From: a virus
Lineage: Duplodnaviria; Heunggongvirae; Uroviricota; Caudoviricetes
DNA length: 37,783 nucleotides
Strand: one strand, 5' to 3'
IMG/VR virus record: IMGVR_UViG_3300029190_000005
Position 1 is the first letter of the stretch. Every line of letters begins with the position of its first letter. Below, piece after piece: positions 34,489 through 35,565 of this stretch. The notes beneath the pieces are model-generated. The model made no database searches. It saw nothing but the letters and a program-made list of their open reading frames with translations, and was not told the origin of the DNA. The position numbers and the translations under genes are program-made.

Positions 34489-34649
34489 TAATAAATGCAT
34501 AACTCACGTTATTTCAACCCTATATGGTTTGATTTATCCCATTTCAGAAAATACCTGCCTATTTTTTTGCCAGTATGCGTATACTTTCGATAGAATGTTT
34601 ACCCTAGAGGTAGTTGGGGGTGCCCGTGAACACGAAGAGAGCTACAGTA

Positions 34650-35069
34650 ATGCAGCATTTGAGGAAATCAGAAAAAAATAAAGACCATGAAATATTGAGT
34701 AAGGCCATTGTTCGGGCTTCCAATAATACTGTTATACCTCATGCTGAAGAGTCTGGACAGAAATTTCTTATTCGGTATTTCACTGAAAATAGTGCAGTTG
34801 AGGAGATTTTAAAACATCAGGGAGGGGAATTTAAATGTGGAAAACTGGCAGATTATGTTCGTCGTGAAACGTCTGAACAAGAAGTATATTATGCTGATAT
34901 TAATCATAAGTCAGGTGTGAAAATTGTAATAGGCTATTACACAACTCCCAAAAATGTTATGCATGAGGTCCCAAAGATGTCCGTCGAGAAATCTCATGCA
35001 ATCTCGCGCAGGATGTTTGCACGCACTGCCGAAGATATGGCTCAGGAGCTCTACGACGATGCTGAATAA
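34650..35069 (+). CDS. Hypothetical protein upstream of and overlapping the YafO-like gene (candidate antitoxin)
   Basis: 139 aa from ATG at 34650 (alternative TTG at 34614); AT-rich; stop overlaps the downstream start by 11 nt; candidate promoter TTGCCA-18-TAGAAT at about 34568-34596. Confidence 0.45.
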   Translation: MQHLRKSEKNKDHEILSKAIVRASNNTVIPHAEESGQKFLIRYFTENSAVEEILKHQGGEFKCGKLADYVRRETSEQEVYYADINHKSGVKIVIGYYTTPKNVMHEVPKMSVEKSHAISRRMFARTAEDMAQELYDDAE

Positions 35070-35565
35070 ATTCCAGGGGTTGGTTCACCCTGGAATTTTT
35101 GGGAAGGACCCTGAGCTAATACCTATCAAAAACGCGTTCATAGATCACTGGCGCTACGGTCATCATAAGGATTTCGGAAAGGACACTCTGTTTCGGGATC
35201 CACCGAAAGAAATGCTGGAATATCACATACGCCACGTTCACGTAAACATCGGAAACTATACTGACAAGTTTGGTGAGAGCGGTACGGAACAATGCTGGAA
35301 AAACTGGGCGTCTGGGAAGAAAGACAAGACCACTAACAAGCATAAAAAGATCCCAACCAGTGACGTGTATGTGATTTATCTGGTCACATCTGAACGCCAT
35401 GCCTTCCTTCTGGATTATTGGGATGAACCAGCACATAAGACAGTAGAAATTGACGAGCAGAAGCAAAAATTAGTTGTCGAGTGTGACAGAATTTTGCGGC
35501 TGAAAAAGTTAGAATCCATGCCGCGCGATGCTAGTTTGTGGGACCCAGAATTTTACGACTGTTAA
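35059..35565 (+). CDS. YafO-like toxin family protein (putative)
   Basis: Segments GIFGKDPEL...HIRHVHVN...SDVYVIYLVTSERHAFLLDYWDEPAHK parallel E. coli YafO motifs (DIFGRD...HIHL...HLVYCQ...AWLLIAILKPEPHK) from memory. Confidence 0.45.
   Translation: MLNKFQGLVHPGIFGKDPELIPIKNAFIDHWRYGHHKDFGKDTLFRDPPKEMLEYHIRHVHVNIGNYTDKFGESGTEQCWKNWASGKKDKTTNKHKKIPTSDVYVIYLVTSERHAFLLDYWDEPAHKTVEIDEQKQKLVVECDRILRLKKLESMPRDASLWDPEFYDC

What the first reader, a model, noticed from the sequence alone, without database searches (positions are those of the whole stretch)
34614..35565. YafO-like toxin paired with a non-canonical 139-aa upstream partner
The downstream gene (35059..35565) shows YafO-like motifs by eye. 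Its upstream, 11-nt-overlapping partner (34650..35069) is larger than, and unlike, YafN-type antitoxins. The pair is AT-rich, has its own promoter-like elements and a terminator, and sits between the two antirepressor genes behind an operator-like site. It may be a toxin-antitoxin module with a novel antitoxin, or a two-gene anti-phage module under repressor control.
Basis: partly seen in the sequence, partly recalled or inferred. Interest (0 to 1): 0.6.

Follow-up and report, generated by a model that had tools for sequence, protein, structure and literature searches.

The report
Phage YafO-type toxin with modular antitoxin
This is a two-gene toxin-antitoxin-like cassette in an epsilon15/phiV10-like E. 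coli phage: the toxin is a divergent relative of the known YafO toxin, and its partner is an uncharacterised protein with a swappable body and a short conserved tail that tracks the toxin. It is a new variant of a familiar kind of system, not a new kind.

Summary
Two co-oriented genes, 34650(or GTG 34626)..35069 and 35059..35565, overlap by 11 nt. They have their own promoter-like site, a palindromic operator-like site and a terminator.

**Partner (ORF1).** It matches no known family and is not YafN-like. Across 52 loci an upstream partner is always present. It consists of a hypervariable body plus a ~37-aa helical C-terminal tail. Tail identity tracks toxin identity (r=0.97), and the tail is under purifying selection. 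Bodies are exchanged by recombination at the body/tail junction.

**Best reading.** This is a type II toxin-antitoxin pair in which the tail neutralises a RelE-fold mRNA interferase. It is carried as cargo next to the phage's antirepressor region. Its promoter carries a phage-wide operator (TTACC-N5-GGTAA, 16 copies), so it is probably under phage repressor control.

Toxicity, neutralisation and any anti-phage role are untested. Interest is moderate: a new variant of a known kind.

The parts
34567..34596 (+). Sigma-70-type promoter-like site TTGCCA-18-TAGAAT for the two-gene operon
   Evidence: 10 of 12 matches. Conserved in loci with related partner bodies.
34599..34613 (.). Operator-like palindrome TTACCCTAGAGGTAG (TTACC-N5-GGTAA with one mismatch), immediately downstream of the -10 hexamer
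   Evidence: 16 copies in the window against 0.67 expected. A copy lies 15-60 nt upstream of the partner gene in most related loci, whatever the partner body type.
34626..35069 (+). ORF1, the putative antitoxin: 147 aa from GTG 34626, or 139 aa from ATG 34650 as annotated. Start uncertain; stop codon 35067-35069.
   Evidence: Hits phrog_9503 only; no Pfam, NCBIfam or PADLOC match. Homologues begin MNTKR at the position of the window's GTG.
34650..34955 (+). Variable 'body' of ORF1: 35% GC, no detectable domain, low-confidence structure
   Evidence: AF2 pLDDT below 50 over residues 1-112. Bodies fall to 27% identity among partners of toxins that are >=90% identical. GC. DNA homology to other body types in E. 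coli genomes starts only at 34955.
34956..35066 (+). Conserved 37-aa C-terminal tail VMHEVPKMSVEKSHAISRRMFARTAEDMAQELYDDAE: predicted amphipathic helix, inferred toxin-neutralising segment. It also contains the AGGAG ribosome-binding site (35044-35048) for ORF2.
   Evidence: Invariant or nearly invariant columns. Helix at residues 120-146 with pLDDT ~70-76. Tail-toxin identity correlation r=0.97. pN/pS 0.36 in this frame against 1.2 and 1.9 in the other frames.
35059..35565 (+). ORF2, 168 aa: divergent YafO-family toxin with a predicted RelE/HigB-like fold, inferred ribosome-dependent mRNA endonuclease
35567..35592 (+). Intrinsic-terminator-like hairpin GGCCGCTTTCGCGGCC followed by TTTTCTTTAT

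Best explanation
**What it is.** A type II toxin-antitoxin-type operon carried as accessory cargo in the antirepressor (immI-like) region of an epsilon15/phiV10-like temperate podovirus.

**Toxin.** ORF2 is a divergent, enlarged member of the YafO toxin family. It is 168 aa against 132 in K-12 YafO. Relative to K-12 YafO it carries an internal insertion around the conserved motif TExCWxxWxxG and has longer ends. Its predicted fold is RelE/HigB-like. By homology it should be a ribosome-associated mRNA endonuclease that arrests translation (inferred).

**Antitoxin.** ORF1 is translated first from the same transcript and is translationally coupled to ORF2. The overlap is 11 nt, and the ORF2 Shine-Dalgarno sequence lies inside the last ORF1 codons. 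Its last ~37 residues form an amphipathic helix that binds and neutralises the toxin (inferred). The rest of the protein is a rapidly exchanged 'body' of unknown role: regulatory DNA binding, stability control or sensing.

**Modularity.** The cassette has two exchangeable halves, [promoter + body] and [tail + toxin].

**Regulation and role.** Transcription starts at a sigma-70-type promoter. Its start region is covered by the phage-wide operator TTACC-N5-GGTAA, so the operon probably belongs to the regulon of the phage's HTH repressor (inferred). The likely biological role is exclusion of competing phages, abortive infection, or prophage stabilisation. It is not determined.
For: **Shown here**
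1. Gene pair, overlap, promoter and terminator.
2. YafO homology:
   - 39 of 40 family members hit PF13957 at E<=0.01, best 8.8e-9.
   - Some members exceed the 25-bit gathering score.
   - hhalign against K-12 YafO gives E 1.5e-4 over YafO residues 14-129.
   - hhalign against a 5-sequence YafO profile gives 97.4% probability, E 9.3e-12 over 115 columns. The motifs FG(K/R)D, (R/H)xHh, TSDxxLhY and PxAH align.
   - NCBI names the cluster 'YafO family toxin'.
4. Pairing: 49 of 52 loci have an upstream ORF overlapping the toxin start by 11 or 14 nt. The other three have adjacent 55-66-aa partners with the same tail motif.
5. Tail and toxin change together:
   - Three tail types match three toxin clades.
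   - Pairwise identity correlates at r=0.97 for tail against toxin, and 0.71 for body against toxin.
   - The tail has many synonymous and few non-synonymous changes: pN/pS 0.36, against 1.2 and 1.9 in the other frames.
6. Modular exchange: the same promoter and body family is joined to clade A (L009) and clade B (L034) tail+toxin. In 19 E. coli genomes the DNA match begins at 34955, which is the tail start.
7. The tail is predicted helical, and it is the only confident part of ORF1.
8. The operator palindrome occurs 16 times in the window, including two copies between the HTH_3 repressor-like gene 5427-6011(-) and the divergent small gene 6166-6396. It lies upstream of the partner gene in most related loci.

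**From established knowledge**
- YafO is a ribosome-dependent endoribonuclease with the upstream antitoxin YafN (PMC7180214; Zhang et al. 2009, cited there).
- Type II antitoxins commonly combine a DNA-binding domain with a toxin-binding C-terminal segment.
Against: - The window's own ORF2 gets no Pfam or NCBIfam hit.
- No DNA-binding domain or any fold could be assigned to ORF1 (pLDDT 49).
- The tail-toxin co-variation could partly reflect physical linkage rather than co-evolution.
- The only operator found at the promoter is phage-wide and independent of body type. Classical antitoxin autoregulation is therefore not evident.
- If the main repressor silences the operon in lysogens, the usual lysogen-protecting roles of toxin-antitoxin modules are harder to sustain.
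- No match to any PADLOC defence model.
- No experiment on toxicity or neutralisation exists for this family, as far as the searched literature shows.
Confidence: 0.7

Rival explanations
1. Lytic-cycle host-takeover module, not an addiction or defence toxin-antitoxin module. The operon is silent in the lysogen because the prophage repressor sits on the TTACC-N5-GGTAA site. It switches on with the rest of the regulon after induction or infection. ORF2 then cleaves host mRNAs on the ribosome to shut off host translation or block co-infecting phages. ORF1 tempers or times its activity.
For: - The operator copy lies directly downstream of the -10 hexamer.
- The same palindrome sits at many other promoters of the phage, including the repressor/cro-like divergent region. 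The adjacent isrK/C4/antirepressor promoter also carries one.
- An operator lies upstream of the partner gene in most related loci.
- EC.W1-9, a phage isolated from sewage, carries the identical module.
Against: - It is not shown which protein binds the palindrome, or that binding represses.
- The copy at this promoter has a mismatch (GGTAG), and some related loci lack a copy near the promoter (L009, L030, L032).
- The slot is empty in phiV10 and holds different cargo in TL-2011b, so the module is dispensable for lytic growth.
- The mechanism (toxin plus neutralising partner) would be the same as in the best explanation. Only timing and role differ.
Confidence: 0.2
2. Phage-sensing defence module. 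The hypervariable ORF1 body is a sensor or decoy that is bound or destroyed by a component of an invading phage. This releases the tail-bound toxin and aborts the infection. Body diversity reflects an arms race.
For: - Bodies are extremely diverse and are swapped exactly at the body/tail junction, while tail and toxin stay constant.
- The body has a distinct low GC content.
- The location is a variable prophage cargo slot.
- Only 22 partner representatives exist among 1.84 billion proteins, with many different bodies.
Against: - No similarity to any known defence protein.
- No fold for the body.
- Distant relatives have partners of only 55-66 aa with almost no body, so the body is not needed for the core function.
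- The body co-inherits with the promoter, which fits a regulatory DNA-binding role at least as well.
- No phage challenge data.
Confidence: 0.15
3. ORF2 is a degenerate or non-toxic YafO relic and ORF1 is an unrelated small phage protein. The pairing is only synteny inside one phage lineage.
For: - The window's ORF2 fails the Pfam threshold.
- The family is confined to Enterobacterales prophages of one type.
- ORF1 has no recognisable domain.
Against: - 29 invariant and 15 nearly invariant columns in 40 toxin sequences that diverge down to 36% identity, including His, Arg, Tyr and Trp residues.
- A high-confidence compact model.
- Purifying selection on the tail.
- Overlap of 11 or 14 nt retained in 49 of 52 loci, and the tail motif retained with toxins of only 32-41% identity.
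- The pair stays together while its position relative to the antirepressor gene changes.
Confidence: 0.05

Closest known systems
E. coli K-12 YafN-YafO (dinB-yafNOP operon), type II toxin-antitoxin; toxin family Pfam PF13957
   Same: - The toxin is homologous: profile-profile 97.4%, E 9.3e-12, with shared motifs FG(K/R)D, RxHh, TSDxxLhY and PxAH.
- The antitoxin gene is upstream, in the same orientation and closely abutting the toxin gene.
- Both partners end in an acidic helical tail. YafN's ...EEITRRAEQYLNDMTDDDFNDFKE resembles the clade C tails ...EEISFRMLSSLEDRIKEELFDVFE. An end-anchored score gives z=3.4, p about 0.001. This is suggestive only.
   Different: - The toxin is 168 aa against 132 and has an internal insertion around TExCWxxWxxG.
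- The partner has no Phd/YefM domain; YafN hits PF02604 and the partners do not.
- hhalign of the tails against YafN is negative.
- The setting is a phage cargo slot with a phage operator, not the SOS-regulated dinB operon.
Vibrio cholerae HigB2 (PDB 5mje, 5jaa) and other RelE/ParE-superfamily mRNA interferases (HigB, RelE, YafQ, YoeB)
   Different: - No detectable sequence similarity, and Foldseek is not significant.
- ORF2 is 50-80 residues longer, with an insertion and a long C-terminal helix.
- In higBA the toxin gene comes first and the antitoxin carries an HTH domain.
Plasmid-borne YafO-family toxins of Klebsiella, Enterobacter and E. coli IncF plasmids, with 'hypothetical protein' partners
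   Same: YafO-family toxin preceded by an overlapping or abutting uncharacterised, non-YafN partner larger than YafN, 175-205 aa. This shows that non-canonical partners are common in the family. It agrees with the SLING survey: 13 partner clusters, 8% known (PMC10790755).
   Different: Those toxins are 136-152 aa. Their partners share no obvious similarity with ORF1 and lack the PKMSxExSxxISRRM...YDDAE tail. They are on plasmids, not in phages.
Phage P1 immunity design (C1 operators scattered over the genome; immI = c4 antisense RNA plus ant)
   Same: Context only. The window has a C4-family antisense RNA and an isrK RNA upstream of a Bro-N antirepressor. It also has 16 copies of one operator palindrome at scattered promoters. 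The module sits inside this region and carries one operator copy.
   Different: The operator sequence, the repressor type (HTH_3) and the phage type (podovirus) differ from P1. The binding protein has not been identified.

Membership tests
YafO toxin family (Pfam PF13957 YafO_toxin) | The protein itself matches the PF13957 model at or above the gathering score (25 bits) | tested here: not met
   No hit for window ORF2, or for its 99%-identical cluster representative, even at E<=10.
YafO toxin family (Pfam PF13957 YafO_toxin) | Homology to YafO demonstrable through relatives or profiles | tested here: met
   39 of 40 family members hit PF13957 at E<=0.01. P0043 scores 33.3 bits, P0005 25.4 and P0053 25.1, all at or above the gathering score. 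hhalign of the family against a YafO profile gives 97.4%, E 9.3e-12, over 115 columns.
YafO toxin family (Pfam PF13957 YafO_toxin) | Ribosome-dependent cleavage of mRNA downstream of the start codon, causing growth arrest | not testable with these tools
   Known for K-12 YafO only (PMC7180214). Inferred here by homology.
RelE/ParE toxin superfamily (fold level) | Structure superimposes on solved RelE-, HigB-, YoeB- or YafQ-type toxins | tested here: inconclusive
Type II toxin-antitoxin system | Two small co-oriented genes in one operon, antitoxin first, with the pairing conserved across genomes | tested here: met
   11-nt overlap, one promoter and one terminator. A partner is present in 52 of 52 loci, with an 11- or 14-nt overlap in 49.
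Type II toxin-antitoxin system | The toxin is toxic and is neutralised by direct binding of the antitoxin protein | not testable with these tools
   Only indirect support: tail-toxin co-variation r=0.97, purifying selection on the tail, and a predicted helix.
Type II toxin-antitoxin system | The antitoxin carries a DNA-binding domain and autoregulates the operon | tested here: inconclusive
   No DNA-binding domain detected in ORF1 or in nine other partner types. The AF2 body is low-confidence. Promoter and body co-inherit. The operator at the promoter is phage-wide, not partner-specific.
Phd/YefM (YafN-type) antitoxins, PF02604 | N-terminal Phd/YefM fold domain | tested here: not met
   YafN hits PF02604 (31.5 bits). 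ORF1 and nine other partners do not.
Phd/YefM (YafN-type) antitoxins, PF02604 | C-terminal toxin-binding tail homologous to that of YafN | tested here: inconclusive
   End-anchored PSSM score of the YafN tail: z=3.4, p=0.0013 against clade C tails; z=2.5, p=0.008 against all tails. hhalign is negative. The comparison was chosen after seeing the resemblance.
Known anti-phage defence systems (PADLOC-DB v2.0.0) | Match to any defence-system protein model | tested here: not met
   No hit for either protein at E<=10.

The most novel reading that the evidence does not exclude
The partner is a two-part antitoxin. Its conserved tail keeps a YafO-type ribosome toxin locked. Its hypervariable body, freely recombined at the body/tail junction, is a specificity module: either a sensor of invading-phage components or a lineage-specific regulator. 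The whole cassette would be wired into the phage repressor's scattered-operator regulon. It would then be a phage-controlled, trigger-specific translation-arrest weapon used in phage-phage competition, rather than a classical autoregulated addiction module.
Probability: 0.18. Interest if true: 0.65.

Novelty: new variant of a known kind. Interest (0 to 1): 0.4.

Why it matters
- **Structure of YafO.** YafO is one of the least understood E. coli toxins and has no solved structure. This phage branch gives a well-conserved, confidently modelled relative. It points to a HigB/RelE-like fold and to candidate catalytic residues (R58, H61, H126).
- **Defined neutralising peptide.** The partner family offers a 37-residue candidate neutralising peptide attached to interchangeable bodies. 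That makes it a convenient natural system for studying how antitoxin modules are recombined.
- **Annotation.** About 1% of complete E. coli genomes carry the cassette in epsilon15-like prophages. Recognising the 'hypothetical protein' as the cognate antitoxin improves annotation.
- **Phage therapy.** EC.W1-9, which carries the module, has been studied as a therapeutic candidate (bioRxiv 10.1101/2024.06.28.601134).
- **Phage regulation.** The link to a phage-wide operator suggests a testable case of a toxin-antitoxin module under phage repressor control.

Tried and rejected
- **Direct family scans.** Pfam, NCBIfam and PADLOC scans of both proteins found nothing useful. Only PHROGs of unknown function matched.
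- **PDB sequence searches.** Searches with the profiles of both families and with K-12 YafO found nothing.
- **Fold searches.** Foldseek of the ORF2 model against BFVD viral structures and against the PDB gave no significant match. The AlphaFold database library was not available.
- **ORF1 structure.** AF2 gave pLDDT 49, so no fold search was run on it.
- **Tail against YafN.** hhalign of the tail profile against YafN was negative. A custom end-anchored score is only suggestive.
- **Species-representative genomes.** The scan returned a single locus, in Serratia aquatilis.
- **Alternative gene model rejected.** The 203-aa ORF 34954..35565 is an upstream extension in the ORF2 frame. That frame shows pN/pS 1.2 across the tail region, against 0.36 for the ORF1 frame. 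All homologues start at the MxN(K/E)(F/Y) position.
- **Partner-specific operator rejected.** The TTACC-N5-GGTAA site is not the antitoxin's own operator. It occurs 16 times across the phage and is independent of body type.
- **Literature.** Searches found no study of this family.
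Full report
**Setting.** The 1.5 kb around the finding (34300-35800) is 100% identical to Escherichia phage EC.W1-9 (PP445227.1). In that record the two genes are annotated at exactly 34650..35069 and 35059..35565 as 'hypothetical protein'. Relatives of the flanks are phiV10, TL-2011b, vB_EcoP_ZX5 and other epsilon15-like (Uetakevirus-type) temperate podoviruses.

In phiV10 the corresponding slot holds no annotated protein-coding gene. In TL-2011b it holds an unrelated 242-aa protein. The two genes are therefore optional cargo in a variable slot. 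The slot lies between a Bro-N antirepressor gene (33514..34251, minus strand) and an 85-aa gene (35589..35846, minus strand). That small gene resembles only the C-terminal domain of such antirepressors.

**The observation.**
- The ORFs, the 11-nt overlap (ATG at 35059 inside ...GACGATGCTGAATAA) and the stop codons are as described.
- An AGGAG at 35044-35048 lies 10 nt upstream of the ORF2 start, inside the last ORF1 codons. This fits translational coupling (read directly).
- A promoter-like site TTGCCA-18-TAGAAT lies at 34567-34596.
- A GC-rich hairpin with a T run at 35567-35582 follows the ORF2 stop.
- The module is moderately AT-rich: 42.6% GC against 48.0% for the window. The ORF1 body is the extreme at 35.1%.
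- The ORF1 start is uncertain. Homologues begin MNTKR... exactly where the window has GTG 34626 (VNTKR...). The first ATG is 34650.

**ORF2 is a YafO relative with a RelE/HigB-like predicted fold.**

Sequence evidence:
- ORF2 itself gets no Pfam or NCBIfam hit.
- BLASTP against K-12 YafO gives only E=0.002 over 54 residues.
- Its family is a tight group of 166-175-aa proteins from Enterobacterales. NCBI calls them 'type II toxin-antitoxin system YafO family toxin'.
- 39 of 40 members hit PF13957 at E<=0.01, best 8.8e-9. Three of the six relatives scanned individually reach the 25-bit gathering score.
- hhalign of the family profile gives E 1.5e-4 against K-12 YafO alone.
- It gives 97.4% probability, E 9.3e-12 over 115 columns, against a small profile of K-12 YafO plus four plasmid YafO proteins. 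The motifs FG(K/R)D, RxHh, TSDxxLhY and PxAH are in register.
- Relative to K-12 YafO the phage proteins carry an insertion around the conserved motif TExCWxxWxxG and have longer termini.

Structural evidence:
- AlphaFold2 with the 40-sequence alignment gives pLDDT 93.6 and pTM 0.89.
- Foldseek against the PDB and against BFVD is not significant. The fold assignment is therefore reasonable but not secure.
- YafO has no solved structure (also PMC7180214).
- Endonuclease activity on ribosome-bound mRNA is inferred from YafO. It was not tested.

**ORF1 is the conserved partner and has a two-part architecture.** It matches only phrog_9503 of unknown function. An exhaustive HMMER search of 1.84 billion representatives with the partner profile found just 22 proteins. 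Many of them share only the last ~40 residues.

I collected 52 loci carrying a toxin homologue: 51 from prophages, viral contigs and metagenome contigs, plus the window.
- 49 have an upstream ORF overlapping the toxin start by 11 or 14 nt.
- The three most distant toxins have adjacent partners of 55-66 aa.
- Every partner ends in a related ~37-aa segment with the pattern hPxhxxhSxExSxxhSxxh...(F/Y)Dxx E-stop. Upstream sequences ('bodies') range from almost nothing to ~150 aa and fall into several unrelated types.

The tail comes in variants that follow the toxin clades:
- Clade A, which includes the window: ...PKMSVEKSHAISRRMFARTAEDMAQELYDDAE.
- Clade B: ...PRVKKMSFTEAxxLSRELSDSREERLxRASFDGPE.
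- Clade C: ...IKxISSAESxEISFRxLNSLExxMKEExFDVFE.

Quantitative support:
- Over 35 unique pairs, toxin identity correlates with tail identity at r=0.97, but with body identity at only 0.71.
- Bodies fall to 27% identity among partners of toxins that are >=90% identical.
- In the tail codons the ORF1 frame shows pN/pS 0.36, while the other two frames show 1.2 and 1.9. The tail is thus conserved as protein, and the in-frame upstream extension of ORF2 (ORF 34954..35565) is not coding.
- AlphaFold2 of ORF1 is poor overall (pLDDT 49). It predicts one long helix for residues 120-146, the only part at pLDDT ~70-76.

**Mosaic structure.** The same promoter and body family (MHRTKRAGP...YQAGYxHGLS) is joined to clade A tail+toxin in L009 and to clade B tail+toxin in L034. 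In complete E. coli genomes, 58 of 5,426 carry matching DNA, all chromosomal. Of these, 39 match the whole module. The other 19 match only from query position 342, which is window 34955, one base before the first tail codon. The cassette is therefore built from two exchangeable halves, [promoter + body] and [tail + toxin]. This is the pattern expected if the tail is the toxin-specific neutralising element and the body has a separate, possibly regulatory, role. Physical linkage alone could produce part of this signal.

**Relation to YafN.** ORF1 has no Phd/YefM domain, whereas YafN hits PF02604. The last 30 residues of YafN (PSAARLEEITRRAEQYLNDMTDDDFNDFKE) line up without gaps, end to end, with clade C tails (ISSAESEEISFRMLSSLEDRIKEELFDVFE). 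An end-anchored profile score gives z=3.4, p=0.0013 for clade C, and z=2.5, p=0.008 for all tails. No decoy C-terminus in the window other than ORF1 itself scores higher. hhalign is negative, and I noticed the resemblance before testing it. I therefore treat a common origin of the tails as a lead only.

**Non-YafN partners are not unusual.** Plasmid-borne YafO-family toxins of 136-152 aa in Klebsiella, Enterobacter and E. coli are likewise preceded by 175-205-aa 'hypothetical proteins' unrelated to YafN and to ORF1. A SLING survey of E. coli counted 13 partner clusters for 6 YafO_toxin clusters, of which only 8% were known antitoxins (PMC10790755). An earlier census found YafO paired with Phd-type and 'guilt-by-association' antitoxins, and saw none on phages or plasmids (PMC3141249).

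**Regulation.** The 'operator-like site' is one copy of the palindrome TTACC-N5-GGTAA.
- With at most one mismatch it occurs 16 times in the window against 0.67 expected. All sites inspected lie near gene ends or promoter-like sequence.
- Two copies lie between an HTH_3 repressor-like gene (5427..6011, minus strand) and a divergent small gene (6166..6396).
- One copy (34474-34488) sits by the minus-strand promoter-like site (34517-34488), upstream of an isrK RNA (34361-34437), a C4 antisense RNA (34255-34342) and the antirepressor gene.
- One copy (34599-34613, half-site GGTAG) directly follows the -10 of the module's promoter.
- A copy lies 15-60 nt upstream of the partner gene in most related loci of all three clades, independent of body type.

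I infer that the site is bound by a conserved phage regulator, most simply the main repressor, and not by ORF1. If so, the module is part of a P1-like scattered-operator regulon. Which protein binds, and whether it represses, is untested. A study of the related phage ZX5 showed repressor and antirepressor effects but defined no operator (PMC9782041).

**Verdict.** What is new beyond existing annotation:
- the demonstration that the 'hypothetical' upstream protein is the invariably linked partner;
- its body-plus-tail architecture, with recombination at the junction;
- the HigB/RelE-like model for this YafO branch;
- the link to a phage-wide operator.

None of this departs from the type II toxin-antitoxin paradigm of mix-and-match modules, so I rate it a new variant of a known kind with moderate interest. 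The biological role (exclusion or abortive infection, prophage stabilisation, or a lytic-cycle function) remains open.

Noticed in passing
window 211, 5293, 5355, 6067, 6115, 6452, 8398, 8460, 12952, 12970, 15689, 16313, 33414, 34474, 34599, 35923 (15-nt sites): The palindrome TTACC-N5-GGTAA occurs 16 times (at most 1 mismatch) against 0.67 expected. The copies sit near gene ends or promoter-like sequence across the phage. Two lie between an HTH_3 repressor-like gene (5427-6011, minus strand) and a divergent small gene. This looks like the operator set of a scattered, P1-like repressor regulon. I found no description of it in the searched literature.
   Followed up: partly
window 34255-34342 (-) and 34361-34437 (-): Rfam finds a C4 antisense RNA (78.6 bits) and an isrK Hfq-binding RNA (74.7 bits) in tandem, directly upstream of the Bro-N antirepressor gene. 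This is an immI-like control region, divergent from the toxin-antitoxin promoter. A terminator-like hairpin at 34380-34367 lies within the isrK match.
   Followed up: partly
window 35589-35846 (-): This 85-aa gene (epsilon15 gp19-like) is homologous only to the C-terminal ~85 residues of the neighbouring Bro-N antirepressor; both hit phrog_450 and phrog_15539. It is a stand-alone antirepressor C-domain, with an operator palindrome upstream at 35923-35937.
   Followed up: partly
L003 (phage TL-2011b) 3308-4036; L002 (phiV10) 3095-3223: The same slot holds no annotated gene in phiV10. In TL-2011b it holds an unrelated 242-aa protein with an N-terminal hydrophobic segment and a Cys-rich C-terminus. 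The site is a cargo hotspot of epsilon15-like phages.
   Followed up: partly
L043-L061, L037-L042 (viral contigs), about 60 nt upstream of the partner gene: In clades B (short-bodied partners) and C, the sequence immediately upstream of the module reads on the module's strand as the 3' end of an antirepressor-type gene (it encodes ...IQTHAEYINDKAGFF in L043). No C4/isrK-type sequence was noticed in the 200 nt printed upstream of the partner gene. The pair keeps its association with the antirepressor gene while the local arrangement changes.
   Followed up: partly
L065-L068 (IncF plasmids of Klebsiella and E. coli): Canonical-size YafO-family toxins on plasmids are each preceded by a 175-205-aa 'hypothetical protein' of at least three sequence types, two of them next to a GrxA glutaredoxin gene. 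These are further uncharacterised YafO partners.
   Followed up: partly
window 15910-15983 (-): A tRNA gene (Rfam 73.3 bits) lies inside the phage, flanked by operator palindromes at 15689 and 16313.
   Followed up: no
window 36042-37733 (+): The tailspike ORF has the epsilon15-type N-terminus but ends at 37733 (563 aa). The EC.W1-9 annotation runs 1,875 nt (to the equivalent of 37916). The window therefore differs from EC.W1-9 in the distal tailspike even though the toxin-antitoxin region is identical.
   Followed up: no
P0071 (169 aa): This partner homologue has a tail that breaks off after ...VMREVPKMSVEK and continues out of register (IACNFSKDVCTHC). It is probably a frameshifted, decaying copy of the antitoxin gene.
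   Followed up: no
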